The notes: generated by a model from the letters alone, not told the origin. A DNA stretch of 64,000 bases from Actinomycetes bacterium (GCA_023264975.1 JAHFUS010000008.1:7219-71218), one strand, 5' to 3'. Shown: positions 8,245-22,939, counted from the stretch's first letter. Numbers and translations: made by a program.

Positions 8245-9222
8245 TCAGGGGTTGCGCATCATGAGCCGGAGCCTGGGCCCGAGCCAGGGCTTGCGGCCCC
8301 AAGCCAGCAGCTTCCCGGTGGCGATGGCGGTCCACTGGCTCTGGCGGTCCCACATCACGTCGAGCAAGGCGACGGGGTCGGCCAGGATGTAGCAGTCGAC
8401 CCGGCGGGTGTGCGGCTCAGCCACCGTGACGGCGCCGTCGTCGAACAGGAATTGAGCACGACCGCCGCCACGGAGACGAACCTCGTAGGTGGCCCGTACA
8501 CCGGCTGCCTTCTCCTGGTCCACCATCGAGCGCGGGTCGAGTTGGGAGATGACGGGGAGGAGGAAGCCCTGGATGGCCAGCGCGGCATGACGGCGGTTGC
8601 CGGGCCACGGCCGCCCTGCGGCTCGGGCGATGTCGGCGCCGTGCATGACCGTCTCGTTGAGCAGGTGGCAGGTGAAGGTGCACTGGTCGACGGTGGTGCC
8701 GGCCACCATCCACGGCGAGCGGTCGTCCCCCGACCGGCTCTCGCATTCACCGAAGTATTCGGCCGCCCGCGCCTCGATCCGGTCGGCCAGCACTTTCGGG
8801 TCTCGCTCGGGGTCATTGCCCACCGCCTCCGTCGTGGTGGCGCCCAACTCCCATACGTCGGCGATCAGCGACTCCCCGTTCCGGCCGCCATGGTCGGGCA
8901 GGACTTCGAAGACGCGCGACAGGTCGCGCCGGGCCATGGCGGGTACGGCCACCCAGGCCTGCGACAGGTGCATGGCCACGCCGCCGAGGTCCCAGTCGCC
9001 GACGGCGTGGCCGTGCGGGTCGCCTACCGAGCGGAGGAGGGCGACGACCCGGGACACCTCGGAACGGAGGGCGGCCTTCGCCGCGGACCACTCCACCGCG
9101 TACGCGCTCGCCACCGATGCCCCCTTGGCTGCCGGTGCCCGGCCGGAAGGCCGCCAAGCTACCCGCGGGCCAGCCGAAACCGTGCATTGGCTCTCGTCCT
9201 GAGCGGAAACGGGGCGTACCAT
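8245..9222 (-). CDS. DinB/maleylpyruvate-isomerase N-terminal domain (mycothiol-dependent family) protein with SCP2-like C-terminus
   Basis: WDLGGVAMHLSQAW and CHLLNETVMHGADIARA resemble the metal-binding His helices of the TIGR03083-type family. C-terminal GKLLAWGRKPWLGPRL. The start is uncertain; GTG at 9114 is an alternative. Confidence 0.6.
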   Translation of the reverse strand: MVRPVSAQDESQCTVSAGPRVAWRPSGRAPAAKGASVASAYAVEWSAAKAALRSEVSRVVALLRSVGDPHGHAVGDWDLGGVAMHLSQAWVAVPAMARRDLSRVFEVLPDHGGRNGESLIADVWELGATTTEAVGNDPERDPKVLADRIEARAAEYFGECESRSGDDRSPWMVAGTTVDQCTFTCHLLNETVMHGADIARAAGRPWPGNRRHAALAIQGFLLPVISQLDPRSMVDQEKAAGVRATYEVRLRGGGRAQFLFDDGAVTVAEPHTRRVDCYILADPVALLDVMWDRQSQWTAIATGKLLAWGRKPWLGPRLRLMMRNP

Positions 9223-9305
9223 GACGGCAGGAACGAAAGAGGGTGAGGCCCACCGCTCTGTTCGCGAAGGCGTTCGTCGGGCCCGCCGACGGGAACGAGA
9301 GAACC

Positions 9306-9569
9306 ATGATCGGCTTCATCGTGTTCGGGCTGGTGGTCGGAGCGCTGGCCAGGCTCATCGTCCCGGGCAGGCAGGAACTCTCCATCGGCATGACCCTGGT
9401 CCTGGGCGTGGTGGGCTCGGTGATCGGCGGCATCGTCGCCAACGCCATCGGCACCGGCGACATCTTCGAGCTGAACTTCATCGGCTCGGTGGTGGCCATC
9501 GCCGCGTCGGTTGTGCTCATCGTCGGCGGAACGAGGGTCGGGGCGATCCGCCGGCGTTTCTCCCGCTGA
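9306..9569 (+). CDS. GlsB/YeaQ/YmgE (transglycosylase-associated) family small membrane protein
   Basis: MIGFIVFGLVVGALARLIVPG...GVVGSVIGGIVANAIG is a typical Gly-zipper three-helix pattern. I chose the ATG at 9306 rather than the longer ORF start at 9243. Confidence 0.8.
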   Translation: MIGFIVFGLVVGALARLIVPGRQELSIGMTLVLGVVGSVIGGIVANAIGTGDIFELNFIGSVVAIAASVVLIVGGTRVGAIRRRFSR

Positions 9570-9601
9570 CCCTGCGGGCCGCCTGCACTCCGATCCGGCG
9601 G

Positions 9602-10438
9602 TCAGAGGAACGAGTCGAGAACCTCGTTGATCCCGGCCAGCACCGGTCCGTCGCCCAGCGAGATGCCGGCGCCGGCGCGGTCGGCCTCAACGATCCCGGG
9701 GTCGTCGGGGACGATCCCGGCCAGGGGGATACCAAAGCCGCGGGCGGCGTCGTGGAAGGTGACGGGGTCGAGTTGGCGCCCCTTGTTGCCGACGAGGGCG
9801 ACCCGCTCGATCCCGTGCCTGGTCGCCATGGTGAACATCCGCTCAGCGGTGACGGAGGACTTGCGGCTCGGTTCCATCACGATCAGCAGCAGGTCGGTGT
9901 GCGCCACCGTGCCACTCGATCGCTCCAGGTGATCGAGGCCGGCTTCGAGGTCGAGCAGGGCGACGTCGGCCTCGCCGTCGAGCGCCGCTGCCAACAGGCC
10001 GCGCGAGGACGCGTGGGCCGGGCACCAGCATCCCCCGGGGTCGTCGCTGACGCGCATGGCGTGGAGGAGGGTGACGCCCGACGGCGTGGTGGTCCCGAAG
10101 CTGGTTACCAGCTGGTCGGTCGTGACGGCGCCGCCTCCCCAGCCGGCCACCAACGCCCGGGGCACCTCTCGCGCCTGGTCCACTGCGGCCTGCGAGAGCC
10201 CCAGGCTGATGCCCAGGTTCGGACTCACGTCGGTGTCGACGGCCAGCGTGCGCAGTCCCCGCGACGCGCAGGCCATGGCCACCAGCGCGGTGACGGTGGT
10301 CTTTCCCGAACCGGTCTTGCCCGTGACACCGACTCTGATGGCTCCGGCCTCCTGCGTGGCTGGCGTTGCAAGCTTGCGGCGGCGACCATAGCCAGTGTGT
10401 GCAAGGACGCGCTGTTCCGGGCGGGCACCGGGCTCCAT
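9602..10438 (-). CDS. CooC-type (MinD/ParA superfamily) nickel-insertion accessory ATPase
   Basis: Deviant Walker A GVTGKTGSGKTT, and the CxC metal motif PGGCWCPAH expected of CooC. The start is ambiguous. ATG at 10438 is used here. A strong AGGAGG lies 8 nt before an ATC at 10339, which would give the canonical (M)RVGVTGK N-terminus. Confidence 0.7.
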   Translation of the reverse strand: MEPGARPEQRVLAHTGYGRRRKLATPATQEAGAIRVGVTGKTGSGKTTVTALVAMACASRGLRTLAVDTDVSPNLGISLGLSQAAVDQAREVPRALVAGWGGGAVTTDQLVTSFGTTTPSGVTLLHAMRVSDDPGGCWCPAHASSRGLLAAALDGEADVALLDLEAGLDHLERSSGTVAHTDLLLIVMEPSRKSSVTAERMFTMATRHGIERVALVGNKGRQLDPVTFHDAARGFGIPLAGIVPDDPGIVEADRAGAGISLGDGPVLAGINEVLDSFL

Positions 10439-10808
10439 CGACGACTCCATCGACGACGCCCTCGACGTGTTCCCCCCGCTGCGCAGGCTGCTCGACCGGC
10501 CCGCCGGCCTGCTCTCCGGTGGCCAGGCCCAGCAGCTGGCGATCGCCCGGGCGTTGGTCTCGAAGGCCCAGGTGCTGGTGCTCGACGAGCCCACCGAGGG
10601 CATCCAGCCGTCGATCATCATCGAGATCGAGGACGCCATAGCCGGCCTGCACGCGGCGGGGATGACGATCCTGCTGGTGGAGCAGTACGTGGAGTTCGCC
10701 CTGCGTCTGGCGCAGCGTCACGCGGTGATGGACGGCGGCCTCATCGCCCACTCGGGCGACACGGCGTCGGTCGACCTGGCCACGTTCTCGGATCTGCTCG
10801 CCGTCTGA
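10395..10808 (+). pseudogene. 3' fragment of a urea/branched-chain-type ABC ATPase (UrtE/LivF-like); the Walker A half is missing
   Basis: It encodes only LSGGQAQQLAIARAL, VLVLDEPTEGIQPSII and LLVEQY (signature, Walker B, H-loop). The upstream DNA is occupied by the opposite-strand CooC-like gene, and no Walker A is present in any + frame. Confidence 0.7.
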
Positions 10809-10811
10809 GAA

Positions 10812-11693
10812 TCAGCCCAGCCGGTCGCGCAGCAGGGCGGCCGCCTCCAGGGGGTCGCCGTAGTTGAGGCGCCATGCCTGCGCCTTGCGGGCCAGGGTGG
10901 CGAGCAGGTGGAAGGACTCGGTCGGGTGCTTGTAGTGGTTGAACGAGCGCTGGAACAACCAGGTCATGGCCTCGCCCCGGGGCGCCGGCGTCAGCTCGCA
11001 TCCTCGGGCGTCGCCGTCGAGGGCCGGTTGGAGGTGGACGATATGGGCCAGGTCGAGGGGTGCCGTCACCGTGCGCGCGCCAATCTGGTCGGCGGTGATG
11101 GCGACCTCGCCGTCTCCGAGCTCGATGCCGGCGATGTCGTCGAGTGCCACGGCGTGGCGACTCCACGGTGAGAGGGCGAGGGCGCGCGGGTAGGGGACCG
11201 GACGCCTCGTGGCCGGGTCGACGCACAGGGCCTCGTCGGACACGTAGTCGAAGCCGGCCACAAGCCCGGCGGCGGCGAACGTCGTCTTGCCGGTGCCCGA
11301 CGGTGCCGGGAAGGCGATGGCCGACGAACCGGAAGCGACGACGCCGGCATGCACAGCCAAGCCGGCGAAGGCGTCGATGGCGGCCTCGTTGACGGCCGTG
11401 AGGACCGCCGCCAGAGCGACGCCCGGCGGACCCGACACGTCGAGCTCGCCGGTGGTGGCGTGCAGGCAGCGGTCGTGGCCGTGCCGCTCACATCCGTCGA
11501 CGACCGCGTACCGCTTGGCCGAAGCCGGCCCACCGGCGACCTTCGGGAACGCCTCGAACAGCTGCGCGATGGCGGCGGCCACCTCGTTCGACGTGCAGGT
11601 GATCCGGAACGCTGTGCCGAGCAACTCCCAGGTGACGTCGTGGACGGATTCCCCGACGACAGGGCCGGCGGTATCGCCCCTGCCCGGCGTCAC
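10812..11693 (-). CDS. HprK-related (HPr kinase-like) P-loop serine kinase of the RiPP-accessory type
   Basis: P-loop FPAPSGTGKTT followed by GFDYVSDEAL. The GTG start overlaps the PqqD stop (GTGA, 11693-11690). No HPr or PTS context is present. Confidence 0.7.
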   Translation of the reverse strand: MTPGRGDTAGPVVGESVHDVTWELLGTAFRITCTSNEVAAAIAQLFEAFPKVAGGPASAKRYAVVDGCERHGHDRCLHATTGELDVSGPPGVALAAVLTAVNEAAIDAFAGLAVHAGVVASGSSAIAFPAPSGTGKTTFAAAGLVAGFDYVSDEALCVDPATRRPVPYPRALALSPWSRHAVALDDIAGIELGDGEVAITADQIGARTVTAPLDLAHIVHLQPALDGDARGCELTPAPRGEAMTWLFQRSFNHYKHPTESFHLLATLARKAQAWRLNYGDPLEAAALLRDRLG

Positions 11694-11974
11694 CCCCCGG
11701 CCGGCATAAGCAGGCCGTCGTCGCGCAAACGGCCGACGGTGGCGGCCACCTCGGCCCGAATGGACTCGGGGGTGGCGCCGTAGGCGACGGCCAGGGCGGC
11801 GACCACCCCGTCGAGGGTGAGCTCGCCGTCGCTGAGGCGCCAGACGTCGGCCGCCGTGGCGTTGAGGACGTAGACCTGGCTCGAGTCGGGATGGAGGAGG
11901 GCGATGCTCTCGTCGACCTCGGTCTCGACCACGCCGTGAACGGCTGGCCCGACCCTCGCACCGGCGTCGTCCAC
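11690..11974 (-). CDS. PqqD-family peptide chaperone (RiPP recognition element)
   Basis: 94 aa. SIALLHPDSSQVYVLNATAADVWRLSDGELTLDGVVAALAVAYG...IRAEVAATVGRLRDDGLL matches the PqqD/RRE winged-helix pattern. GTG start. Confidence 0.75.
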   Translation of the reverse strand: MDDAGARVGPAVHGVVETEVDESIALLHPDSSQVYVLNATAADVWRLSDGELTLDGVVAALAVAYGATPESIRAEVAATVGRLRDDGLLMPAGG

Positions 11975-12034
11975 GGTGCCGAGGCTACCGCTGTGGGGCG
12001 GCGGTGGTCTGGCGGACGGCAGTCAGCAATACGA

Positions 12035-12063
12035 TTGACTCATATTGGAAGAATTGCTACGCT
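12035..12063 (+). promoter_or_regulatory. Candidate sigma-70-type promoter (TTGACT-N17-TACGCT) facing the Tat-signal mini-ORF
   Basis: Hexamers read directly: TTGACT at 12035-12040, TACGCT at 12058-12063, 17-nt spacer. They lie inside a ~54% GC island; adjacent coding sequence is visibly more GC-rich. Confidence 0.3.
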
Positions 12064-12137
12064 GAGCGGTCAAGCGACCATTTCCCTTATCGAGCGGAAA
12101 CTCTGCGTGTCGAGGAAGCAGTGCTCACCGGACGTGT

Positions 12138-12157
12138 CAGAAGTTCTCTGACTTCTG
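12138..12157. repeat. Perfect 7-bp inverted repeat CAGAAGT-N6-ACTTCTG in the divergent control region
   Basis: Read directly. It lies between the candidate promoter and the ATG at 12224, so it could be an operator or a 5'-UTR hairpin. Confidence 0.5.
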
Positions 12158-12223
12158 GTTTGAGACCCGGATTTCGGGGAATAGATATGCGATCAGTGGC
12201 AGTCAAACTACTGGGGGCGGTAC

Positions 12224-12412
12224 ATGGACGAGAAGCGTGACGGTGGGTTGTCCCGGCGGGACGCGCTGAAGAGGGGCGCCGTCGTTGCCAGTGCGGCGTG
12301 GATCGCGCCGGCAGTGATGGCGCTGCCTGTGAGCAGCGCTTCGGCTGACTCCCCGAGTGGGACGTCGACGAAGCCGAAGAAGACCAAGGTGCACCTGCTG
12401 GGGAACCGCTAG
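12224..12412 (+). CDS. 62-aa mini-protein with twin-arginine (Tat) signal and a 21-aa Ser/Thr/Lys-rich tail
   Basis: GGGGGCGG lies 4 nt before the ATG. SRRDALK fits the S/T-R-R-x-F-L-K consensus. A hydrophobic region ends in ASA, leaving DSPSGTSTKPKKTKVHLLGNR. Third-codon positions are GC-rich, consistent with coding. Confidence 0.5.
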   Translation: MDEKRDGGLSRRDALKRGAVVASAAWIAPAVMALPVSSASADSPSGTSTKPKKTKVHLLGNR

Positions 12413-12455
12413 CACCGAGCCGTTCGGCGGCTGCGCTCCACCGCCGCCGGCATCG

Positions 12456-13667
12456 TCAGTGCGTGTGGCGCCGCTCCTCGGCGGCGATGGCCTCGAGGAA
12501 CTCTTGGCGGTCCGCATCCGAGCCTTCGTCATGGCGAGGCGAGTTCAGGCTGGTCGGGTCCATGTCGGGAGCGAATGGCGCCAGCGACAGCCTCGCCCTC
12601 GGTGGTAGGGCGGCGCGCAGCCGGCGCCGGAACTCGATCGCGGTCGACGCCGTGCCGGCGCGGGCGGACCGGGACAGGAGCAGGGCGATGGAGCGGCTCC
12701 CGCCGGACCGGGCAGGCGGGGCGACCAGGTCCACCGCCCCGCCCGCCACCAGATAGGCGCGCCCGCCCGCCATCGCCTCGGGCACGCCCGCGGGCACGGG
12801 CACGGCGAGGACCCTCCGGGCCCGGCTCAAGGCGAGGGCGACCGCCGGCCCCATGCCCCAGGAGCGGGCGCGGGCGACCAGGTCGTCCCAGTTCGCACCG
12901 CCGGCGATGACCCGTTCCAGGTCCTTGAGCCACACCAACCGGTGCCCACCTGACAGCGTGGCGTGCGCGCCCAGGTGGACGAGGGTGTCGAGCGGGTCGA
13001 GTGTGCGTATGGCCGTCCCCCCCACCCGGGCCGGTCGTGCCCGTTCCGCCAACTCGGCCATCGACGGCCTGAAGGTCCGCCGCACGGCCGGTCCGGTGAA
13101 CAGGTGCCAGTGGAGGTCGAGGAGCGTTTCGTGGCGGAGCCGGAGCAGCACTTCGCCCACCTGGAGCTCGCGCAGGAGCCGCCAGTTGCGGTCGAGCAGG
13201 GTCGCGCCCTGCTCCCCGAGTGCGGTCAGGACGTCGCCCACGGCACTGGCGGGCACCACGACGTCGAGATCCGAGTACGAGCGGAGATCGGGCCGGGTGT
13301 AGTGCAGCTCGGCCAGGACCGGCCCCTTCACCACCAGCCACGACACGCCCAGGGCGTCGAGGGTAGGGCCCAGCTGGGCCAGGTCGCCGAGCGCCCGCAC
13401 GTGGCGGTCCACGCCGCGGTGGTGGGCGGCGGCCAGCCCGGCGAAGCGCCCGGCGCTGACGACCGGGGCCAGGCTGTGGTGCACGCATCCGCTGACACCG
13501 TGGAACTCGGCGGCGGCGGCCACCCGGTCAGGTCCGGCCAGGTCGGCCAGTGCCGCCACACCGTCCGGCGCCGTGGCCCAGTCGTGTTCGGTCACGCATC
13601 GCCGGAGGAGCCGGGCCGTCGCCGTGGCCGCGCCCAGCACTCGGGACCGGCGGGCCGGCCCCGTCAC
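12456..13667 (-). CDS. Nucleotidyltransferase family protein (uncharacterised NTP_transf_5 / PF14907 type)
   Basis: YSDLDVVVP and LLDLHWHLF motifs. GTG at 13667 overlaps the CHAT gene stop (GTGA, 13667-13664), so I prefer this start to the 466-aa ORF start. Confidence 0.75.
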   Translation of the reverse strand: MTGPARRSRVLGAATATARLLRRCVTEHDWATAPDGVAALADLAGPDRVAAAAEFHGVSGCVHHSLAPVVSAGRFAGLAAAHHRGVDRHVRALGDLAQLGPTLDALGVSWLVVKGPVLAELHYTRPDLRSYSDLDVVVPASAVGDVLTALGEQGATLLDRNWRLLRELQVGEVLLRLRHETLLDLHWHLFTGPAVRRTFRPSMAELAERARPARVGGTAIRTLDPLDTLVHLGAHATLSGGHRLVWLKDLERVIAGGANWDDLVARARSWGMGPAVALALSRARRVLAVPVPAGVPEAMAGGRAYLVAGGAVDLVAPPARSGGSRSIALLLSRSARAGTASTAIEFRRRLRAALPPRARLSLAPFAPDMDPTSLNSPRHDEGSDADRQEFLEAIAAEERRHTH

Positions 13668-15943
13668 GTCGCGGGAGCGGGAGCGGCGGCGGCGGCGGCC
13701 TCCGGCTCGGTGAGGCGCAGGTGGGCCCAGCAGTGCGCGGTGTAGACGAGCCCGAAGAGGTTGCCCGACGCCAGGAAGTCGAAGCGGGCGGCCTGGAGGG
13801 CGGCGCCGATCTGTGCGTCGGGCTGCAGGAGGGCAGCGAAGAAGGCCTCGGCCCACGCCATGGCCTGGAGTTGGGGCACCTTCACTTCGGTGCCGATCAC
13901 CCCGACCGCGTTGCCGCCCCCCACGAAGGCGTCGACGTACGACACCAGGGTGGCCGGCGTGATCTCGAGCGAGTGGCAGGCGTTGATGACGACGAGCGGC
14001 CGCACCCGGTCCCAGATGACCTTGTTCTCGGCGAAGCCGGCGTCGAAGAGGTCGATGAGCTCGGTGGCCGTGATCTGCTCACGGTCGCCGACGGACAAGA
14101 AGGTGTCCGGGCTGCCGACCTGGTCCTTGTCGCCGTGGCAGTAGAAGTAGACAACCGGCAGGTCGGCCGACAAGAGGCCGAGGATGTCCTTCTTGGCGGC
14201 GCTCTCCTGCACCAGCACCCCGGCGAAGCGGGACTCGAACAGCGACCGCAGCTTCTGCACGTGGGCGGCCAGCGCCTTCTGGTCGACCTTCCTCGACTCG
14301 CCGACGGCCACCACCGCCTCGGGCGCGACCGGTATCGACGCAGTGGGGTCCTTGGAGGATGCGGGGGCCTCGATCATCTGGGTGAAGCCCCAAAAGCCGA
14401 ACGGGCAGAGCAGGTCCTTGGTGTGAGGCACGTCACCCGCCCGGGGGCAGGTGTCTGTGGGCCCGGCGACAAGGGGGCTGCGCTCGTCCCACTCCGTCAC
14501 CAGGGGGCACACGGGCACGTCGCGGACGTCGTCCGGCAGGCCGATCTCGTAGAGGTAGTTCCACGGCACGGTGAAGCGGACGTTGCGGGGCCGGGCGATG
14601 TGCACGATGGGCCTGGGTGACGTACGACGCAGCTCGCCGAGCACGTCGCGCGCCTGGAGGAACAACTGGCGGTAGAGCTGGCGGCCGAGCGGGGCCAGCT
14701 CCCGCAGGTCGTCGACGAGGTCCTCCTTCGTGCGCATCCGCTGGTCGGCGGCCCGGTAGACAAGGGCCTTGCGCAGGTCGCCCACCAGCGGGCCGATGGT
14801 GTCGTCGGGCAGCGAGAAGGCGGTGGCCTCCGCCGGCATCTCGCCAGGGGGGCGCAGCACGATGCCGTGGGCACCCCCGTCGTTCGTGTTGGTGACGATG
14901 CTGAAGCGAGGCGTGTCGGGGATGGTCTCGAGGTCGTCGAGTGCGGCCGACGCTGTGTAGTCGGTGGTGATGGTGAAGCCACCCGGTCCATCGAGGTCGG
15001 TGACGAGGACCTGTGACTGCACCGGAGCGTCGCGGTAGTAGTAGCCGATGCGGGCCCGTGCCGGGCCGGCCGCCGGCACCCGGAGGGCGACGTCGATCCA
15101 CGGCTGACCGCTGTCCAGCGCGGTCGCCGGGCTGCCGTCGGCAGGCAGATGGAACGCCTGCTCCACCGAGCGCTGGTCCCGGTCGAGGTCGTCGAACGTC
15201 GTCGCCACTGCGAAGTCGGCGCTGGTCACCAACACCCGCAGTTCGAGGTCGCGCTTGGGGAGCACTTCGTCGGGGAAGGCGACGGGCCCGGTCACGTGGG
15301 TGCCTCGGTCGAGAGGGCCGATGCTGAGGCGGAGGCGGAGATCGGCATGGGGAACCAGGGGAAGCGCCTCGTCGAGCCGTTCGCCTCCGCTGTCGGCGAC
15401 GACCGCGTTCGCGTACCTGGTGCGGGCCCGGACGGCGCGGGCGGGCGAGGGGGACTGGGGGCCCGGGAGCGGCGCGGGCGGCTTGCTCCTCGGCTTGGCC
15501 GGTGCCGGAGATGCTGGTGGAGGCAGGTTGCGACGAACGGGAGGTGAAGGCGGTAGTGCTGCGTCGGGAGTGTGGGGCGCGCCGCCGGGAAGGGACCGCG
15601 GAACCGGCTCCGGGATGAAGAGCTCGCCGGTCGGCAAGGGGTCCTCGTACGGCGGGACCGGAGGGAGGGGAGCGCTCTGGGGCGGCGAAGCCCCGGGCGT
15701 CGCGGCCGCGGGCTGAGCGGACTCTGGCGGGTGGGCCGGCACCGGCGGCGCCGACGGCGGGCCGGGCGAAGGAGGGGCGCCGACGGCGGGGCCGTGGCGC
15801 CGGCCGAGACGCGGCAGCCGGAAGCGGGGGAGCCTGGACGGCCCGCCGACGGTGGTGGGGCCTCCGGTCGAGCCCGGCCCGCGGAACAGACCGGAGAGGG
15901 CGGCCCCCACCGCCCTGATCCTGGCCAGCAGCCACTCGACCAT
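13664..15943 (-). CDS. CHAT-domain (caspase-like) protease with N-terminal helix, ~140-aa proline-rich spacer and an unassigned middle region
   Basis: C-terminal ~200 aa carry the His motif VVYFYCHGD and the Cys motif LVVINACHS. They are preceded by LCPFGFWGF. I recognised no TPR, NACHT or SAVED sensor. Confidence 0.8.
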   Translation of the reverse strand: MVEWLLARIRAVGAALSGLFRGPGSTGGPTTVGGPSRLPRFRLPRLGRRHGPAVGAPPSPGPPSAPPVPAHPPESAQPAAATPGASPPQSAPLPPVPPYEDPLPTGELFIPEPVPRSLPGGAPHTPDAALPPSPPVRRNLPPPASPAPAKPRSKPPAPLPGPQSPSPARAVRARTRYANAVVADSGGERLDEALPLVPHADLRLRLSIGPLDRGTHVTGPVAFPDEVLPKRDLELRVLVTSADFAVATTFDDLDRDQRSVEQAFHLPADGSPATALDSGQPWIDVALRVPAAGPARARIGYYYRDAPVQSQVLVTDLDGPGGFTITTDYTASAALDDLETIPDTPRFSIVTNTNDGGAHGIVLRPPGEMPAEATAFSLPDDTIGPLVGDLRKALVYRAADQRMRTKEDLVDDLRELAPLGRQLYRQLFLQARDVLGELRRTSPRPIVHIARPRNVRFTVPWNYLYEIGLPDDVRDVPVCPLVTEWDERSPLVAGPTDTCPRAGDVPHTKDLLCPFGFWGFTQMIEAPASSKDPTASIPVAPEAVVAVGESRKVDQKALAAHVQKLRSLFESRFAGVLVQESAAKKDILGLLSADLPVVYFYCHGDKDQVGSPDTFLSVGDREQITATELIDLFDAGFAENKVIWDRVRPLVVINACHSLEITPATLVSYVDAFVGGGNAVGVIGTEVKVPQLQAMAWAEAFFAALLQPDAQIGAALQAARFDFLASGNLFGLVYTAHCWAHLRLTEPEAAAAAAPAPAT

Positions 15944-16210
15944 TCAGTCTCCGCCCAGCCATCTGGTGTCCTTCAGAACGGTGACCCCGAGGATCAGGTA
16001 GCCGAAGAAGCCGACGAAGAGGCCGATGCTGTACCAGGCGAACAGGCGGGCGCCGTCGAACATGGTCGTCACGGCTGCGCCGCCAACGGCGCCGATCACC
16101 GAGGCGATGTCGGAGATGGCCACCGCCTCTCTGGAGCGGCGCAACGTGCGGTAGGTCACCCAGCCGATCACCACGCCGAAGCACCACGCGCCAGCGGCTT
16201 GGGTCTGCAT
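15944..16210 (-). CDS. Small (88 aa) predicted three-helix membrane protein, first gene of the CHAT operon
   Basis: Three hydrophobic stretches: WCFGVVIGWVTY, IASVIGAVGGAAVTTMF, WYSIGLFVGFFGYLILGVTVL. Its stop is directly followed by the CHAT start (TGAATG, 15946-15941). Confidence 0.6.
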   Translation of the reverse strand: MQTQAAGAWCFGVVIGWVTYRTLRRSREAVAISDIASVIGAVGGAAVTTMFDGARLFAWYSIGLFVGFFGYLILGVTVLKDTRWLGGD

Positions 16211-16314
16211 TCGGCCAACCCCTGTTCTCCGCCCGCCAGGACGGTCGCCGTCAACGTAGCCTTGGCGGCGGCCGTCGACTCGGCCCGCCGGACGCCGGGT
16301 AGGGTGGCGCCCCT

Positions 16315-16881
16315 ATGGCGTCCCAGGCCACCTTCGCCGCCCAGGCGATGGAGCACATGGGGTCGCTCTACGGGGCCGCCCTGCGCATGACCAGGAACCC
16401 GGCCGACGCCGAGGACCTCCTCCAGGAGACCTACCTGAAGGCGTACCGGTCGTTCGCCACGTTCCAGGAGGGAACCAACCTCAAGGCGTGGCTCTACCGC
16501 ATCCTCACCAACACCTTCATCAACTCGTACCGGGCCAAGAAGCGCCGCCCCGAGCAGACCGACGTCGAAGACGTGGAGGACCTCTACCTGTACCACCGCC
16601 TCGGCGGCCTGGAGGCGGCGGCGGCCGGGCGCAGCGCCGAGGAAGAGGTGCTCGACAGTTTCACCGACGACGAGGTGAAGCAGGCGCTCGAAGCACTGCC
16701 GGAGCAGTTCCGGATCGCCGTCCTCCTCGCCGACGTGGAGGGGTTCTCCTACAAGGAGATCGCTGAAATGACCGACGTCCCGATCGGCACGGTGATGAGC
16801 CGCCTGCACCGGGGAAGAAGGGCGCTCCAGAAGACGTTGTTCGACTTCGGTATGGAGCGCGGCCTCGTAGGAGAGCGTTAG
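16315..16881 (+). CDS. sigH: ECF sigma factor, SigH/SigR (thiol-stress) type
   Basis: Region 2 [17 protein letters not shown]...WLYRILTN. Region 4 [32 protein letters not shown] anti-sigma gene follows immediately. Confidence 0.9.
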
Positions 16882-17165
16882 TGATGGACGAAACCGCCCA
16901 CCACAAGTGCGCGGTCGCCGTGGAGCGGCTCTACCACTTCCTCGACCACGAGCTCGACGACGCCAGCGCGGCCGACGTCCAGCGCCACCTCGACGACTGT
17001 CTGCCTTGTCTGGAAGCGTTCGACTTCGAGCTCTCGTTGCGCGTGATGATCGCTTGCAAGTGCCGCGACCAGGTGCCCGAGATGGTGTGGATCCGCATCT
17101 GGAAAGCCATCCAGGGCGAGGGCGGCCCCGAAGAAGGCAATGGGGGAATGCTTCCCTCCGAGTGA
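16881..17165 (+). CDS. rshA: Zinc-associated anti-sigma factor (RsrA/RshA type)
   Basis: HxxxCxxC motif HLDDCLPC plus upstream Cys (HHKCAV). The start overlaps the sigH stop. Confidence 0.85.
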   Translation: MMDETAHHKCAVAVERLYHFLDHELDDASAADVQRHLDDCLPCLEAFDFELSLRVMIACKCRDQVPEMVWIRIWKAIQGEGGPEEGNGGMLPSE

Positions 17166-17180
17166 CTGTTCGAGTGAGAG

Positions 17181-17372
17181 ATGGCGAACGAACGAGCTAT
17201 CCAAGGAACACCATTCAAGGGCGCCGACCGGCCGTCACGGTCCTTCGGAGCAGGCAGGGTCTGTAGAGAGCCGCATTGCGAGACCCGCCTGTCGATGTAC
17301 AACAGCGGGAAGTACTGCTACGAGCACGAGCCGATGTCCGTGCCTCGTACCCGGGGCAAGAAGATCGCCTAG
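17181..17372 (+). CDS. Small conserved-looking Cys/His (zinc-ribbon-like) protein
   Basis: 63 aa with CREPHC-x12-CYEH. It sits directly after sigH-rshA on the same strand. I cannot name a family. Confidence 0.5.
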   Translation: MANERAIQGTPFKGADRPSRSFGAGRVCREPHCETRLSMYNSGKYCYEHEPMSVPRTRGKKIA

Positions 17373-17423
17373 GCGACGGGGGCCGATCAGACGATCGGCC
17401 GACCCTGGACCTACCATCGACGG

Positions 17424-17558
17424 ATGGACCCCATCCTTGCCGCCAAGGTCTGGCATTACTGGATCGGCATCGCCATCCTCATGCCCGCACTGCTGGCCGT
17501 GCTGTTCACCGTCATCGGCTATCTCGTGAAGGTGACGAGCAAGAAGTACCCCCGGTAG
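17424..17558 (+). CDS. Possible 44-aa single-pass membrane peptide (below the ORF-track size cut-off)
   Basis: Translated by hand: MDPILAAKVWHYWIGIAILMPALLAVLFTVIGYLVKVTSKKYPR. Third-codon positions are GC-rich. Its stop is 3 nt before the next gene's GTG. Confidence 0.35.
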   Translation: MDPILAAKVWHYWIGIAILMPALLAVLFTVIGYLVKVTSKKYPR

Positions 17559-17561
17559 GCC

Positions 17562-18641
17562 GTGCGCTCTAGCCAGGCCATCAACTGGGAGCTGGCCGAG
17601 AAGGTGGCCGTCCGCGTGGCCGGCCGGGAGCCTTTGGCCGATTCGTACCACTACGCCTCGCTGGCGCCCGACTTCGCCGAGTTGACGGCCGAGGCGGAGG
17701 AACTGGTGGCGGCCGCCACCGGGCTTCGCTCCGCCGCCGGCCCCGCCCGGGCCCGCGTCACCGACCGGGCCGGGTGGGTCCATGCCAACATCGCGTCGTT
17801 CCAGCGCCTGCTGCGCCCGATCACCGACAAGCTCGGCCCCCGGCTGGCGTCGAGCCGCCTGGCCCCGGTGAGCCGGGCCGTCACCGGCGCCCAGCTCGGC
17901 ACGATGCTCGGCTGGATGTCGAGCCGGGTGCTCGGCCAGTACGACCTCCTGCTCATCGAGGAGGAGCGCCCGGAGGAGCAGGACATCGTCTACTTCGTGG
18001 GGCCGAACATCATCGGCCTCGAGAAGCGGTTCGGCTTCCCGCCTCGCGAGTTCCGCCTGTGGCTGGCGCTGCACGAGGTCACCCACCGGGTGCAGTTCAC
18101 CGGGGTGCCGTGGCTGCGGCCCCACTTCCTCTCGCTTGTCGAGGGGTGCCTCGGCGCTGTCGAACCCGACCCCAAGCGCTTCACCGAGGCCCTGCGCAGG
18201 GCCGTCGACGAGATGCGGGCGGGCAAGAACCCCCTGGCCGACGGCGGCCTCGTGGCCCTGTTGGCGGGCCCGGAGCAGAAGGCCATGCTCGACCAGGTTG
18301 GTGGGCTCATGAGCCTGCTGGAGGGCCATGGCGACGTCACCATGGACCGGGCCGGCGCCGAGCTCATCCCGAGTGCCGAGCGCTTCAGCAACGTGCTGCG
18401 CCAGCGCCGAGCCGAGGCCAAGGGCGCGGCCAGGTTCGTCCGCCAGCTGGTGGGCCTGGAGGCCAAGCTCAAGCAGTACGAGCAGGGCGAGAAGTTCATC
18501 GAGGCGGTCGAGGCGCAGGGCGGCACCGAACTGCTGGACCACGTGTGGCGGGGGCCCGAGTGGCTGCCCGACCTGGCCGAGATCCGCGAGCCGTCCGGGT
18601 GGATCGAGCGGGCCCGGGCCGCCTCGGCGGTCGTCGGGTAG
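17562..18641 (+). CDS. Zinc-dependent metalloprotease, DUF2342 family
   Basis: HExxH in WLALHEVTHRVQF. N-terminal INWELAEKVA is typical of this actinobacterial family. It sits next to tilS, as I remember for other Actinomycetota. Confidence 0.8.
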   Translation: MRSSQAINWELAEKVAVRVAGREPLADSYHYASLAPDFAELTAEAEELVAAATGLRSAAGPARARVTDRAGWVHANIASFQRLLRPITDKLGPRLASSRLAPVSRAVTGAQLGTMLGWMSSRVLGQYDLLLIEEERPEEQDIVYFVGPNIIGLEKRFGFPPREFRLWLALHEVTHRVQFTGVPWLRPHFLSLVEGCLGAVEPDPKRFTEALRRAVDEMRAGKNPLADGGLVALLAGPEQKAMLDQVGGLMSLLEGHGDVTMDRAGAELIPSAERFSNVLRQRRAEAKGAARFVRQLVGLEAKLKQYEQGEKFIEAVEAQGGTELLDHVWRGPEWLPDLAEIREPSGWIERARAASAVVG

Positions 18642-18653
18642 GTTCGACGAGCC

Positions 18654-19397
18654 GTGGCACGCGTCCTGGTGGTGGACGACGAGGCGGTCATCCGCCGCCT
18701 GGTGCGTCTCAGCCTCGAGCAGGACGGGCACGGGGTCACCGAAGCGGCCGACGGTGTGGAGGCCCTGCTGGCGATCGGCCCCGACGGGCCCGACGTGATG
18801 GTGCTCGACCTCACCATGCCCCGCCTCGACGGGTGGGAGGTGCTGGGCCGCCTCAACGCCGGCGGCCGGTCGTCCGACCTGCCGGTGATCGTGCTCACCG
18901 CCGTCGATGCCGAGGTCGACCGCATCCGCGGTGGCGTCGAGGGCGCCGTGCGCTACCTCACCAAGCCGTTCAGCCCCGACGATCTGCGCAAGCAGGTCCG
19001 GGAGGCCACGGACACGCCCGCATCGGAGCTGCGCCGCCGCGCCGCCGTCGAGGCCCTCGAGCGCATGGCCGCCCTGGAGCGGGGCGCCGCCGGGGGCGGT
19101 CCCCCGCCCGCCTCCCGTCCCCATGTGGCCCGCCTCGGTGGTCCGGTCCCCTCGGCCGGCCCCCGCACCGGCGCCCGGCGCCTCGGCTCCCACCAGGTGC
19201 TGGCCCTGTCCGACCGCCAGCGTGAGCTGCTCGAGGCGGTGTCCTCCACGCCGACCGTGCTGGAGGCGGCCGAACGCCTGGGGGTGAGCCGGTCCAACGT
19301 GTACGCCAGCCTGCACCGCATCGCCCGCCGGCTGGCGGTGGACTCGGTGGCCGAGCTCGTCGTGCTGGCCCGCCAGGGTCGGGGCGACGCTGCCTGA
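18654..19397 (+). CDS. Response regulator (receiver domain + C-terminal HTH)
   Basis: VLVVDDE...MVLDLTMPRLDG...YLTKPF receiver motifs. C-terminal LSDRQRELLEAV...LGVSRSNVYASLHRIARRL. Confidence 0.85.
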   Translation: MARVLVVDDEAVIRRLVRLSLEQDGHGVTEAADGVEALLAIGPDGPDVMVLDLTMPRLDGWEVLGRLNAGGRSSDLPVIVLTAVDAEVDRIRGGVEGAVRYLTKPFSPDDLRKQVREATDTPASELRRRAAVEALERMAALERGAAGGGPPPASRPHVARLGGPVPSAGPRTGARRLGSHQVLALSDRQRELLEAVSSTPTVLEAAERLGVSRSNVYASLHRIARRLAVDSVAELVVLARQGRGDAA

Positions 19398-19416
19398 CGG
19401 GCCGGCGGCGCCGGCC

Positions 19417-20331
19417 CTGCTCGACCGGTGCTCGTTCCCTCCGGCAGGGACGGCGCTTTCGTGCGCGGTCTCCGGCGGGGCCGACTCGCTGGCCCTGCTG
19501 GTGCTGGCCACTGCGGCCGGTTGCGACGTCACCGCCCACCATGTCGACCACGGTCTGCGCCCCGGCTCGACCGAGGAGGCCCTGGTGGTGGCGGCGGCGG
19601 CGGACCGGTTCGGCGCCCGCTTCGAGGCCCACCGCGTCACCGTCGCCGCCGGGCCCAACCTCGAGGCCCGCGCCCGCGCCGCCCGCCTGGCCGCACTCCC
19701 GTCCGGCGCCGCCACCGGCCACACGGCGGACGACCAGGCCGAGACGATCCTGCTCAACCTCCTGCGGGGCGCCGGCCTCGACGGCCTGGCCGGCATGCGC
19801 CCTGGTCCGGCCAAGCCGATCCTCGCCCTCCGGCGGGCCGAGACCCAAGGCCTGTGCAGGGGCTTGGGCCTCGAGCCTGTGCGGGACCCTTCGAACGAAG
19901 ACCCCGCCCATCGCCGCAACCGCATCCGCCACGAGGTCCTGCCCCTGCTGGACGACGTCGCCCAGCGCGACGTGGTGGCCGTCCTCGTCCGCCAGGCCGC
20001 CCTGCTGCGCGACGAGGCGGACCTCCTCGACGAGCTGGCCGCCGGCGCCGATCGGTCCGACAGCCGGGCGCTGGCCGCCCTGGCGCCGGCCGTGGCCCGC
20101 CGGGTCGTCCGCCGCCTCCTGGCCGGTGACCACCCGCCGGGAGCGGCGGCAGTGGAGCGTGTCCTGGCCGTGGCCCGCCACGAGGCGGCCGCCTGCGAGG
20201 TCGAGGGCGGCCGCACGGTGCGCCGCTCGGCCGGCCGCCTGTCGGTTGACGACACACCGCCCGGGGACGGTCCCGCGTCACGGGACCGGGCTTGGAGAGC
20301 GGTTGAGGGGCACAGCCCCCCGACCGTCTAG
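19417..20331 (+). CDS. tilS: tRNA(Ile)-lysidine synthetase
   Basis: The PP-loop SGGADSLALL lies upstream of the first canonical start (GTG 19501) in the same open frame. GHTADDQAETILLNLLRG. The start is set provisionally at CTG 19417 (see findings). Confidence 0.8.
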   Translation: MLDRCSFPPAGTALSCAVSGGADSLALLVLATAAGCDVTAHHVDHGLRPGSTEEALVVAAAADRFGARFEAHRVTVAAGPNLEARARAARLAALPSGAATGHTADDQAETILLNLLRGAGLDGLAGMRPGPAKPILALRRAETQGLCRGLGLEPVRDPSNEDPAHRRNRIRHEVLPLLDDVAQRDVVAVLVRQAALLRDEADLLDELAAGADRSDSRALAALAPAVARRVVRRLLAGDHPPGAAAVERVLAVARHEAAACEVEGGRTVRRSAGRLSVDDTPPGDGPASRDRAWRAVEGHSPPTV

Positions 20332-20340
20332 CTTCGACGT

Positions 20341-20916
20341 ATGGCCGACGAACCGGGCTCCGCCGCCGACCCGAACCTGGGCAAGGTCGTGGTCACCCAG
20401 GCCGAGCTGGAAGCCCGCATCGCCGAGCTGGGCGAGCAGCTGACGGCCGACTACGAGGGCCGGGCGCCCCTCCTCGTCGGCGTGCTGAAGGGTGCTTTCG
20501 TGTTCATGAGCGACCTCGCCAGGGCGATCCGCCTGCCCCTGGAGTTCGACTTCATGGCCGTGTCGTCGTATGGCAGCGCCACGAAGACGAGCGGGGTCGT
20601 CCGGATCGTCAAGGACCTCGACCTCGACCTCACCGGGCGTCACGTGCTCCTGGTGGAGGACATCGTCGACAGCGGGCTCACGCTGTCCTACCTGCGCCGG
20701 AACCTGGCCGCTCGGGGGCCGGCCACCCTGGAGGTGTGCGCACTCCTGGTGAAGGACGGGCTGCAGCGGTCGGACCCCGAGCTTCGCTACGTGGGCTTCA
20801 CCATCCCGCCCGAGTTCGTGGTGGGGTACGGGCTCGACGTGGCCGAGCGCTACCGGAACCTGCCGTACGTGTGCGCATACGTCGGCGACACAGGCACAGG
20901 TACCCTGCAAGGGTGA
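20341..20916 (+). CDS. hpt: Hypoxanthine phosphoribosyltransferase
   Basis: [16 protein letters not shown] and the PRPP motif [14 protein letters not shown]. Confidence 0.9.
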
Positions 20917-20956
20917 CTTCCGCTTCCTGCGCCCGCTCCGACCGCTCCGTTCCCTG

Positions 20957-22939
<1,983 letters not shown>

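What the first reader, a model, noticed from the sequence alone, without database searches (positions are those of the whole stretch)
13664..16210. CHAT protease with an unusual architecture, translationally coupled to a 3-TM mini-protein and a nucleotidyltransferase
The 759-aa protein has four parts:
- a short amphipathic N-terminus (MVEWLLARIRAVGAALSGLF)
- a ~140-aa spacer that is largely Pro, Ala and Ser
- a ~350-aa middle region I cannot assign to any family
- a C-terminal CHAT core (CPFGFWGF; YFYCHGD; INACHS)

CHAT proteins I know usually carry TPR, NACHT, SAVED or EAD-type sensor modules. None is evident here.

Start and stop codons abut or overlap at both junctions, which implies stoichiometric co-expression with the 88-aa membrane protein and the PF14907 enzyme. 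The three gene products may form a membrane-tethered protease complex.
Basis: partly seen in the sequence, partly recalled or inferred. Interest (0 to 1): 0.7.

Follow-up and report, generated by a model that had tools for sequence, protein, structure and literature searches.

The report
Membrane mini-protein paired with CHAT protease
The 88-residue membrane protein and the caspase-like CHAT protease form a two-gene module found in at least eight bacterial phyla and, as far as I could find, undescribed, whereas the neighbouring nucleotidyltransferase belongs to a separate peptide-modification cassette.

Summary
The sequence observation holds. There is an 88-aa three-segment membrane protein (TM88, 15944-16210, minus strand). 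There is a 759-aa CHAT protein (13664-15943) whose ATG abuts the TM88 stop. There is a 403-aa PF14907 enzyme whose GTG overlaps the CHAT stop (GTGA).

Comparative data split the proposed trio.

- **TM88 and CHAT are one unit.** TM88 lies next to 37 of 42 near-full-length CHAT relatives, in three gene arrangements. Conversely, 64 of 80 TM88-seeded metagenome loci carry the CHAT gene. Nine relatives have a TM88-like domain fused to the protease N-terminus.
- **TM88 is the better conserved partner.** Median identity is 65% against 36% for the protease, in 75 of 75 loci.
- **The nucleotidyltransferase is not part of the unit.** It accompanies the pair only in close Acidimicrobiales relatives. Elsewhere it sits in lasso-peptide clusters.

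The "unassignable" middle region is a confidently modelled tandem beta-sandwich plus helical module. It has no significant structural match. The catalytic His603 and Cys656 are invariant. The N-terminus varies across the family (TM helix, TIR, EAD8, HU and others).

The closest precedent is the predicted EACC1-caspase conflict system, but TM88 is not detectably homologous to EACC1 and the domain order is reversed. Function is inferred, not shown.

The parts
15944..16210 (-). TM88: an 88-aa protein with three hydrophobic segments. It is the constant membrane partner of the CHAT protease. Conserved motifs are GWVTYRTLRR (loop 1), a Gly-rich second segment (VIGAVGGAAVT) and a C-terminal WLG tail.
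   Evidence: It is 64-70% identical across phyla. There are 731 homologues, the 120 listed being 76-113 aa (most 87-91). It has no Pfam, NCBIfam, PADLOC or PDB match.
13664..15943 (-). CHAT-family cysteine protease, 759 aa, stop codon included. Its ATG abuts the TM88 stop.
15884..15943 (-). N-terminal hydrophobic or amphipathic helix (MVEWLLARIRAVGAALSGLF). It is the probable membrane- or TM88-associating element.
   Evidence: Conserved in L001 and L085 and in P0002, P0006 and P0010. Kyte-Doolittle hydropathy is 1.2-1.4 here and 1.7-2.1 in P0002 and P0006.
15437..15883 (-). Pro-rich low-complexity linker (residues 21-169, 34% Pro).
   Evidence: Length varies between relatives through in-frame indels. 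GC3 is 0.84.
14804..15436 (-). Constant tandem beta-sandwich module (residues 170-380). It starts with the RYANA motif.
   Evidence: AF2 pLDDT is 91-98. Foldseek finds no PDB or viral hit with E < 1e-3. It is conserved in all family members.
14621..14803 (-). Helical segment (residues 381-441) between the beta-sandwich module and the CHAT fold.
   Evidence: helices at core residues 211-227, 237-258 and 260-271.
13700..14620 (-). CHAT (caspase-fold) protease domain, residues about 442-748.
   Evidence: Pfam PF12770. Foldseek matches Csx29/TPR-CHAT, separase and SAVED-CHAT with E from 1e-9 to 1e-7.
14384..14509 (-). Invariant Cys479, Cys499 and Cys513, with His507 conserved in at least 90% of sequences, in the N-lobe. 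This may be a metal site. The stretch ends in CPFGFWGF.
   Evidence: Invariant and near-invariant columns in the 115-sequence alignment. Positions. Metal binding is inferred.
14135..14137 (-). Codon of the catalytic His603 (YFYCHGD).
   Evidence: Invariant column H434 of the core alignment.
13976..13978 (-). Codon of the catalytic Cys656 (INACHS).
   Evidence: Invariant column C487 of the core alignment.
12456..13667 (-). PF14907 nucleotidyltransferase-fold protein, 403 aa. Its GTG start overlaps the CHAT stop (GTGA). It is physically coupled here, but it belongs to the neighbouring peptide-modification cassette and not to the conserved module.
11690..11974 (-). PqqD-family peptide-binding protein of the neighbouring cassette.
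   Evidence: PF05402 with E = 9e-16. Weak matches to lasso and HPr-rel-A PqqD models.
10812..11693 (-). HprK-related kinase-like protein of the neighbouring cassette.
   Evidence: TIGR04352 at 66 bits, below its cut-off of 200. Its start overlaps the PqqD stop.

Best explanation
The locus holds two independent modules that happen to be fused into one operon in this Acidimicrobiales lineage.

**Module 1, the real finding.** This is a self-contained two-gene system.
- TM88 is an extremely conserved 88-aa membrane protein with three hydrophobic segments.
- Its partner is an active CHAT (caspase-fold) cysteine protease. The constant part of that protease is a tandem beta-sandwich, a helical segment and the CHAT domain. 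The N-terminus is exchangeable.

**Proposed mechanism (inferred, not shown).**
1. TM88 sits in the membrane as an oligomeric hub.
2. The protease is held at TM88, through its N-terminal helix (a true TM helix or a TM88-like domain in relatives) and probably through the constant beta-sandwich module.
3. TM88 controls protease activation, acting as a membrane-state sensor or as a restraining anchor.
4. Once active, the His603/Cys656 protease cleaves cellular targets or its own linker.
5. This makes the pair a membrane-coupled stress or conflict (abortive-infection-type) system. It would be analogous to, but not homologous with, the predicted EACC1-caspase systems.

**Module 2.** The PF14907 protein, PqqD and the HprK-like kinase form a RiPP-type peptide-tailoring cassette. 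Its GTGA overlap with the CHAT gene is a lineage-specific juxtaposition.
For: **Shown: TM88 and CHAT travel together.**
- Adjacency holds in 37 of 42 genome loci with near-full-length CHAT relatives, across at least 8 phyla.
- Three arrangements occur: 17 upstream on the same strand, 11 downstream on the same strand and 9 convergent.
- In reverse, 64 of 80 TM88-seeded metagenome loci carry the CHAT gene. Most of the rest are contigs too short to tell.
- Identities of the two proteins to the window co-vary (Spearman 0.73, p = 7e-14). TM88 is the more conserved in 75 of 75 loci, with medians of 65% and 36%.
- No third gene is conserved across 46 loci.

**Shown: physical link.**
- Nine relatives carry a TM88-like domain fused to the protease N-terminus (E from 2e-48 to 2e-7). 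About 15-20 others start with a TM helix.
- Two loci with fused proteins still keep a standalone TM88 gene (L086 and L019). This suggests homotypic TM88 contacts.

**Shown: the protease looks active.**
- His and Cys are invariant in 115 sequences.
- The fold matches Csx29, separase and SAVED-CHAT.

**Supporting a conflict role.**
- N-terminal domains in relatives include TIR_2, EAD8, DUF4332/HHH, HU and ABC-ATPase.
- Distribution is sparse and patchy. One species has copies at a chromosome end and at a plasmid end (L042, L064).
- Some loci lie near prophage, integrase or toxin-antitoxin genes.

**Shown: the nucleotidyltransferase is separate.**
- It is absent from all loci outside close Acidimicrobiales relatives.
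- A 42% homologue sits in a lasso-peptide cluster.
- The related PsmN acts together with an HprK-type kinase on a peptide's C-terminal serine (PMC6993621).
Against: - No experiment or structure shows a TM88-protease contact. No complex prediction could be run.
- The defence-island signal is weak. The 138 flanking ORFs are mostly housekeeping, with only a handful of restriction, MzaA, PDC or Fic hits.
- There are no PADLOC hits and no copies on viral contigs.
- The very high conservation of TM88 is unusual for fast-evolving immune components.
- The conserved 4-nt overlap with the nucleotidyltransferase gene in at least three relatives (window, L001, L085) could reflect a real lineage-specific functional link.
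- Locus retrieval was motif-seeded, so frequencies are biased towards canonical members.
Confidence: 0.55

Rival explanations
1. Protease-activated membrane executioner, following gasdermin-like logic. TM88 is the substrate and effector. The CHAT protease senses a trigger through its beta-sandwich or N-terminal domain. It then clips TM88, for example at the cytosolic YRTLRR loop or the C-terminal WLG tail. Cleavage converts TM88 into a pore or depolarising oligomer that kills or arrests the cell.
For: - Caspase-fold proteases that activate a membrane effector are an established bacterial theme. This rests on knowledge of gasdermin-protease operons and was not tested here.
- TM88 has Gly-rich, tightly conserved membrane segments and conserved charged cytosolic loops.
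- It is conserved far more strongly than the protease, as expected for a packed oligomeric membrane assembly.
Against: - No cleavage site is known.
- TM88 shows no similarity to gasdermins, holins or other known pore formers.
- A TM88-like domain is fused to the protease in nine relatives, and the WLG tail is retained inside several of those fusions. That fits an anchor or hub at least as well as a substrate.
Confidence: 0.22
2. TM88, the CHAT protease and the PF14907 enzyme form one stoichiometric, membrane-tethered three-protein complex.
For: - The start and stop codons abut or overlap at both junctions.
- The CHAT/PF14907 overlap is kept in L001 and L085.
Against: - PF14907, PqqD and HprK-like homologues are absent from all TM88/CHAT loci outside close Acidimicrobiales relatives.
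- A PF14907 homologue occurs in a lasso-peptide cluster without CHAT or TM88.
- PsmN-type enzymes work with HprK-type kinases on peptides.
Confidence: 0.06
3. A non-conflict physiological role. TM88/CHAT is an accessory membrane-stress or membrane-protein processing module, with regulated proteolysis at the membrane and no link to phage or competitor defence.
For: - Flanking genes are mostly housekeeping.
- There are no PADLOC hits and no viral copies.
- TM88 is conserved like a protein that contacts an invariant cellular component.
Against: - Distribution is very sparse and patchy across phyla, with a plasmid copy and a chromosome-end copy in one species.
- The N-terminus is exchangeable and includes TIR and EAD8, domains typical of conflict systems.
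- Several loci lie next to prophage, integrase or toxin-antitoxin genes.
Confidence: 0.17

Closest known systems
EACC1-caspase two-gene membrane-associated conflict system (Kaur, Burroughs, Iyer and Aravind 2020, eLife, PMC7159879, 'System 4'). It is a computational prediction.
   Same: - Both are two-gene units of a small, strongly conserved membrane protein and a caspase-superfamily protease.
- In both, the protease has a constant part and a highly variable terminal region.
- In both, the small component is better conserved than the protease, and its membrane segment has a Gly-rich patch.
- Both are common in Actinobacteria and sporadic elsewhere.
- Both variable regions draw on unusual domains. 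The paper lists EF-Tu domains, and one relative here is database-labelled 'elongation factor Tu'.
   Different: - TM88 has three hydrophobic segments, not one TM helix with alpha+beta extensions.
- The window's TM88 matches no Pfam family at E <= 5 other than two noise-level hydrophobic hits.
- The domain order is reversed. Here the variable region is N-terminal and the CHAT domain C-terminal.
- A constant tandem beta-sandwich precedes the protease domain.
- Therefore it works like an EACC1 system but is not a member.
TPR-CHAT (Csx29) of type III-E CRISPR 'Craspase', and SAVED-CHAT of type III CRISPR signalling
   Same: These are the best structural matches of the protease domain (Foldseek E from 1e-9 to 1e-7, about 220-440 aligned columns). 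All are regulated bacterial CHAT proteases with a His-Cys dyad.
   Different: - No TPR or SAVED domain is present.
- No cas genes appear among the ORFs of the surrounding ~14 kb of the window or in the most frequent Pfam families of neighbours at related loci.
- Sequence identity is only 10-17%.
- The regulatory partner here is a small membrane protein, not an RNA-guided complex or a cyclic oligoadenylate.
Bacterial gasdermin plus protease operons
   Same: Both have a caspase-fold or CHAT protease encoded next to a membrane-acting protein. In gasdermin operons this gives a cell-death type of immunity.
   Different: - TM88 is 88 aa and an integral membrane protein. It is not a soluble gasdermin of about 250 aa.
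- There is no sequence similarity.
- Cleavage of TM88 is not shown.
Lasso-peptide tailoring set PsmK (HprK-type kinase) and PsmN (uncharacterised nucleotidyltransferase) with a PqqD RRE; also Haft's 'HPr-rel-A system' (TIGR04352/TIGR04353). This applies to the neighbouring cassette only.
   Same: The window has the same combination of a PF14907 protein, PqqD and an HprK-related protein. A 42% PF14907 homologue lies in a full lasso cluster. PsmN adds hexose to the serine phosphorylated by PsmK (PMC6993621).
   Different: - No Asn-synthase-like cyclase or transglutaminase-like leader peptidase appears among the ORFs listed for 9000-22000. Only some of those ORFs were scanned against Pfam.
- The TIGR04352 and TIGR04353 scores are far below their cut-offs.
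- No precursor peptide is identified.

Membership tests
CHAT domain / clan CD caspase-fold cysteine proteases (PF12770) | Match to the Pfam CHAT model above its gathering score | tested here: met
   30.5 bits against a cut-off of 24, E = 3.4e-7, residues 545-728.
CHAT domain / clan CD caspase-fold cysteine proteases (PF12770) | Conserved catalytic His-Gly and Ala-Cys dyad motifs | tested here: met
   His603 (YFYCHG) and Cys656 (INACHS) are invariant in 115 aligned family members.
CHAT domain / clan CD caspase-fold cysteine proteases (PF12770) | Caspase/hemoglobinase fold similar to solved CHAT proteases | tested here: met
   The AF2 model has pLDDT 92.6. Foldseek matches Csx29 (7zoq, 7xsq, 8eex), separase (5fc2) and SAVED-CHAT (8tl0) with E from 3e-9 to 1e-7.
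CHAT domain / clan CD caspase-fold cysteine proteases (PF12770) | Proteolytic activity | not testable with these tools
   This needs biochemistry.
EACC1-caspase two-gene conflict system (Kaur et al. 2020) | [quoted passage not shown] | tested here: not met
   TM88 has three hydrophobic segments. For the window's TM88, Pfam lists only FeoB_C and Na_Pi_cotrans noise at E <= 5. EACC1 is not among the 25 families most often hit by the 114 members.
EACC1-caspase two-gene conflict system (Kaur et al. 2020) | Constant caspase domain at the N-terminus with a variable C-terminal region | tested here: not met
   Here the N-terminus varies and the beta-sandwich plus CHAT part is the constant C-terminus.
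EACC1-caspase two-gene conflict system (Kaur et al. 2020) | The small membrane component is constant while the protease component diversifies, and the variable region draws on conflict-system domains | tested here: met
   TM88 is more conserved in 75 of 75 loci. TIR_2, EAD8, HU, HHH/DUF4332 and ABC-ATPase occur at the variable end.
CRISPR-associated CHAT proteases (TPR-CHAT/Csx29, SAVED-CHAT) | TPR or SAVED sensor domain fused to CHAT | tested here: not met
   No Pfam, NCBIfam or PADLOC hit lies outside the CHAT domain. The beta-sandwich model has no PDB hit with E < 1e-3.
Bacterial gasdermin-protease systems | A gasdermin gene adjacent to the protease | tested here: not met
   The only conserved neighbour is the 88-aa TM88. 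It has no Pfam or PADLOC match.
Known anti-phage defence systems (PADLOC-DB 2.0) | Match of any component to a PADLOC model | tested here: not met
   No hits at E <= 0.01 for TM88, CHAT, PF14907, PqqD or the HprK-like protein.
HPr-rel-A / lasso-type PqqD + HprK-like + PF14907 cassette (neighbouring genes only) | PF14907 protein next to PqqD and an HprK-related protein | tested here: met
   Window genes at 12456-13667, 11690-11974 and 10812-11693. The same set occurs in L001 and L085. A lasso cluster holds a PF14907 homologue.
HPr-rel-A / lasso-type PqqD + HprK-like + PF14907 cassette (neighbouring genes only) | Scores above the NCBIfam cut-offs for HprK_rel_A (TIGR04352) and PqqD_rel_X (TIGR04353) | tested here: not met
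   66.1 bits against 200, and 25.3 against 35. It is related but not an equivalog.
Lasso-peptide biosynthetic gene cluster | Asn-synthase-like cyclase and transglutaminase-like leader peptidase present | tested here: inconclusive
   Neither appears among the ORFs listed for 9000-22000 or among those of them that were Pfam-scanned. Not every ORF was scanned, and the rest of the 64-kb window was not searched.

The most novel reading that the evidence does not exclude
TM88/CHAT is a previously unrecognised, widespread class of membrane-coupled caspase-like immune or cell-death switch. An ultra-conserved 88-aa membrane protein is either the sensor of membrane perturbation or the protease-activated executioner. 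Exchangeable N-terminal domains (TM anchors, TIR, EAD8, DNA-binding modules) direct or arm the protease.
Probability: 0.35. Interest if true: 0.8.

Novelty: new variant of a known kind. Interest (0 to 1): 0.62.

Why it matters
Caspase-fold proteases are central to cell-death immunity in animals and, as recent work shows, in bacteria (Craspase, SAVED-CHAT, gasdermin activators). In each case the key question is what switches the protease on.

Here the only conserved partner is a tiny membrane protein. It is better conserved than the enzyme itself and has no family assignment in Pfam, NCBIfam, PADLOC or the PDB. If it gates or executes the response, it would be a new and minimal way to couple membrane state to proteolysis.

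The module has only two genes and occurs in cultured Streptomyces, Kitasatospora and Pseudonocardia strains, so it can be tested directly. Separating it from the neighbouring peptide-tailoring cassette also prevents a wrong three-protein model from entering annotation.

Tried and rejected
**Searches that found nothing**
- NCBIfam and PADLOC scans of TM88 and CHAT gave no hits.
- A Pfam scan of 114 TM88 members at E <= 5 gave only hydrophobic noise such as FeoB_C and DUF3180.
- A TM88 profile against PDB sequences gave nothing below E = 0.1.
- Foldseek of the isolated beta-sandwich model against the PDB and BFVD gave no hit with E < 1e-3. Only generic Ig-like, adhesin, ASF1 and Vps26-like folds appeared, with TM-scores (normalised to the query) of at most about 0.33.
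- Scans of IMG/VR viral contigs for the CHAT family and for TM88 found none.
- The N-terminal PF26784-type domain (P0026) has no PDB sequence relative.
- Three literature searches found no description of a small membrane protein paired with this CHAT family.

**Ideas tested and rejected**
- JGI labels some TM88 proteins 'YeaQ/YmgE'. An hhalign comparison of the TM88 profile with the window's own Gly-rich small membrane ORF (9306-9566) gave only 24% probability, so no relationship is claimed.
- I looked for a third conserved gene by clustering all flanking ORFs of 46 loci. Beyond antisense shadows and lineage synteny there was none.
- A functional link to the adjacent ECF sigma and zf-HC2 anti-sigma pair was considered. 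It was rejected because that pair belongs to a conserved sigma/Zincin_2/tilS/hpt/ftsH block. L001 has two extra genes inserted between it and TM88, and the neighbour-gene tables of the other loci looked up individually list no sigma factor.

**Calls that failed**
- The look-up of P0426 (Blastococcus PF14907) found no record.

**Not attempted**
- Complex prediction. The structure tool returns no coordinates or PAE, so a fused-chain model could not have been evaluated.

Full report
**1. What is in the sequence**

The window is 67-76% G+C. On the minus strand, three ORFs follow each other without gaps.
- An 88-aa ORF lies at 15944-16210.
- A 759-aa ORF lies at 13664-15943. Its ATG directly follows the first ORF's TGA, and a GGAG sits 5 nt upstream of that ATG.
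- A PF14907 ORF follows. An in-frame GTG at 13667 overlaps the CHAT stop (GTGA).

That GTG gives a 403-aa protein identical to an independent database gene call (P0390). The ORF's upstream extension has GC3 of 0.57 against 0.91 inside the gene.

After a 480-nt gap come a PqqD gene (11690-11974) and an HprK-related gene (10812-11693).

Residues 21-169 are 34% proline.

The long N-terminus is genuine. The hydrophobic helix right after the TM88 stop, and a Pro-rich linker with in-frame indels, recur in two relatives with 95% and 87% identical proteases (L001, L085). They also recur in P0002, P0006 and P0010. GC3 is 0.84 there.

**2. The protease belongs to a large, uncharacterised family**

Residues 170-759 find more than 130 clusters of homologues. 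Most align at 37-52% identity over about 97% of the query (a few at 30-34%). They come from Acidimicrobiales, Acidobacteriota, Gemmatimonadota, Alphaproteobacteria and others. The "unassignable" middle region and the CHAT core are therefore one conserved unit.

AlphaFold2 with this alignment gives pLDDT 92.6 and pTM 0.92. The model has three parts:
- a beta-rich module of about 210 residues;
- about 60 helical residues;
- a CHAT fold.

The CHAT part matches Csx29/TPR-CHAT, separase and SAVED-CHAT (E from 3e-9 to 1e-7).

The beta module, modelled alone, has pLDDT 91.3. It has no PDB or viral match with E < 1e-3, only generic tandem Ig-like folds. It is not a known sensor domain.

His603 and Cys656 are invariant in 115 sequences. 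So are Cys479, Cys499 and Cys513, and His507 is conserved in at least 90% of sequences. The last four may form a metal site; that is an inference.

The region N-terminal to the constant part varies widely:
- TIR_2, EAD8, DUF4332/HHH, HU and ABC-ATPase with a MalK OB domain;
- a domain of about 300 aa labelled PF26784;
- Lys/Ala-rich tails;
- single TM helices in about 15-20 members;
- a TM88-like domain in nine members.

**3. The 88-aa protein is the conserved partner**

An 88/89-aa gene lies immediately upstream of the CHAT gene in Acidobacteriota, Afipia, Longimicrobiaceae and Rhizomicrobium contigs. These proteins are 64-70% identical to the window's.

The family has 731 members at E <= 1e-3. 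The 120 listed are 76-113 aa, most 87-91, and none has a Pfam domain. In a library clustered at 50% identity, the canonical form collapses into essentially one cluster, with about 630 more divergent clusters around it.

*Genome scan seeded with CHAT motifs.* It returned 75 loci. Of the 42 with near-full-length matches, 37 have a TM88 gene adjacent:
- 17 upstream on the same strand;
- 11 downstream on the same strand;
- 9 downstream and convergent.

Two of the five exceptions are cut by contig ends. One is a degraded gene. One (L039) has a different small membrane ORF in the same place. A more distant sister clade, mostly Chloroflexota, lacks TM88.

*Metagenome scan seeded with TM88 motifs.* 64 of 80 loci carry the CHAT gene. 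Of the 16 without it, about 11 have no more than about 900 nt of flank on at least one side. About three to five are true orphans, for example L149.

*Further evidence.*
- Identities of the two proteins to the window co-vary (Spearman 0.73, p = 7e-14). TM88 is the better conserved in 75 of 75 loci.
- No third gene is conserved.
- Two loci whose protease carries a fused TM88-like domain still keep a standalone TM88 gene (L086, L019). This suggests homotypic contacts between TM88 units; that is an inference.

**4. The nucleotidyltransferase is a neighbour, not a partner**

Homologues of the PF14907 protein, PqqD and the HprK-like protein occur beside the pair only in close Acidimicrobiales relatives: L001/L008, L085 and L088.

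A 42%-identical PF14907 protein lies in a complete lasso-peptide cluster. That cluster has an ABC exporter, PqqD, an Asn-synthase-type cyclase, a ScmC-like protein and a transglutaminase-type peptidase, with no CHAT or TM88.

In the pseudomycoidin cluster, the uncharacterised nucleotidyltransferase PsmN adds hexose to a C-terminal serine phosphorylated by the HprK-type kinase PsmK (PMC6993621). That PsmN belongs to PF14907 is my inference from its description.

The window's cassette scores below the cut-offs of the HPr-rel-A models. The ORFs inspected show no cyclase. It is a related, orphan peptide-tailoring set. The GTGA overlap with the CHAT gene is conserved in at least three relatives. 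It is best read as a lineage-specific operon fusion, though a local functional link cannot be excluded.

**5. How it probably works**

*Shown.* The pair is a two-gene unit. The protease has an intact catalytic dyad, a constant beta-sandwich/helical module and an exchangeable N-terminus. Many members are anchored in the membrane or fused to a TM88-like domain.

*Inferred.*
1. TM88 forms a membrane hub.
2. The hub docks and controls the protease.
3. On a membrane-related signal the protease is activated.
4. It then cleaves targets or its own linker.

TIR and EAD8 fusions, the sparse distribution across at least eight phyla, plasmid-end and chromosome-end copies in Streptomyces okerensis (L042, L064), and occasional prophage or toxin-antitoxin neighbours all favour a conflict or abortive-infection role.

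The counter-evidence is real:
- flanking genes are mostly housekeeping;
- there are no PADLOC hits;
- there are no viral copies;
- TM88 is unusually conserved for an immune component.

The main rival is that TM88 is the protease's substrate and a pore-forming executioner.

**6. Comparison with what is known**

The closest precedent is the predicted EACC1-caspase "System 4" of Kaur et al. 2020 (PMC7159879). It also has a strongly conserved small membrane protein and a caspase with a hypervariable end.

TM88 fails the defining features of that system:
- it has three membrane segments and no detectable EACC1 match;
- the domain order is reversed.

EACC2 systems (PMC8195603) also differ.

The pair therefore works like an EACC-type system but is not a member. 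Three literature searches found no description of this pair.

**7. Verdict**

A two-protein membrane-associated protease module is supported; a three-protein complex is not.
- I rate it a new variant of a known (predicted) kind and of moderate-to-high interest. It is a compact, testable and widespread module whose key component has no family assignment.

**Caveats**
- Loci were retrieved by motif seeding.
- Many contigs are short.
- Neighbour ORFs were chosen by a heuristic.
- All structural statements rest on AlphaFold2 models.

Noticed in passing
window 12224-12412 (+); also L001 11102-11293 (-) and L085 11305-11505 (-): A small ORF (62-66 aa) lies on the opposite strand between the PF14907 gene and PqqD. 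It has a Tat-like SRRDALK motif, a hydrophobic core and an ASA|D cleavage site, followed by a short, variable Lys/Ser-rich tail. It is conserved at protein level in three genomes and has GC3 of 0.86. It may be an exported mini-peptide or a precursor linked to the tailoring cassette.
   Followed up: partly
window 10812-13667 (-): The PF14907, PqqD and HprK-like genes form an orphan RiPP-type tailoring cassette. The ORFs inspected show no lasso cyclase or leader peptidase. Scores are well below the HPr-rel-A model cut-offs, so this may be a distinct sub-family with an unknown substrate.
   Followed up: partly
L001 4605-7089, compared with window 16211-16314: In the relative whose protease is 95% identical, an astacin-BTRD1 protein (685 aa) and a 113-aa gene are inserted between the ECF sigma gene and TM88. 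The window has only a 104-nt intergenic region there. The spot appears to be a variable insertion site.
   Followed up: no
L009 2923-5031 (same contig as L002 5379-7484); L044 5827-10808: Some loci carry more than one CHAT gene around a single TM88. In L009 a different CHAT protein of 701-703 aa, which is not a family member, lies directly upstream of TM88. In L044 two family paralogues lie in tandem before one TM88.
   Followed up: partly
L039 7680-7949 (+): In a Micromonosporaceae contig, the CHAT family gene is followed by a small membrane ORF that is not detectably homologous to TM88. It has a similar size and a YRARR loop. It may be a displaced analogue. A WD40-type CHAT protein lies upstream on the other strand.
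   Followed up: no
L042 (Streptomyces okerensis chromosome, 7314218-7327588 of 7330005) and L064 (plasmid p1, 961-14330): The same species carries the module near a chromosome end and near a plasmid end. The plasmid copy of the CHAT gene is split into two ORFs. This is consistent with terminal, mobile or duplicated DNA.
   Followed up: no
window 14384-14509 (-), CHAT residues 479-520: Cys479, Cys499 and Cys513 are invariant and His507 is conserved in at least 90% of family members. They sit in a high-confidence loop region of the CHAT N-lobe that has little regular secondary structure. The stretch looks like a structural metal site, which to my knowledge is not a usual feature of CHAT domains.
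   Followed up: partly
proteins P0019, P0026, P0031, P0042, P0046, P0048 (N-terminal 250-310 residues): A recurrent N-terminal domain of about 300 aa is labelled PF26784 in the precomputed annotation. It is absent from the local Pfam copy, and P0026 has no PDB sequence relative. Its identity might hint at the system's input or output.
   Followed up: partly
window 9243-9569 (+): A 108-aa Gly-rich small membrane ORF looks like a GlsB/YeaQ-type protein. It has no Pfam hit at E <= 1e-3 and only 24% hhalign probability against TM88.
   Followed up: partly
window 16315-22939 (+): A conserved housekeeping block lies divergent from TM88. It comprises an ECF sigma factor, a zf-HC2 anti-sigma factor, a 63-aa conserved ORF, a Zincin_2 metallopeptidase, a response regulator, tilS, hpt and ftsH. 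The same order occurs in L085, and in L001 except that no response regulator is called there. This supports an Acidimicrobiales chromosomal origin for the window.
   Followed up: partly
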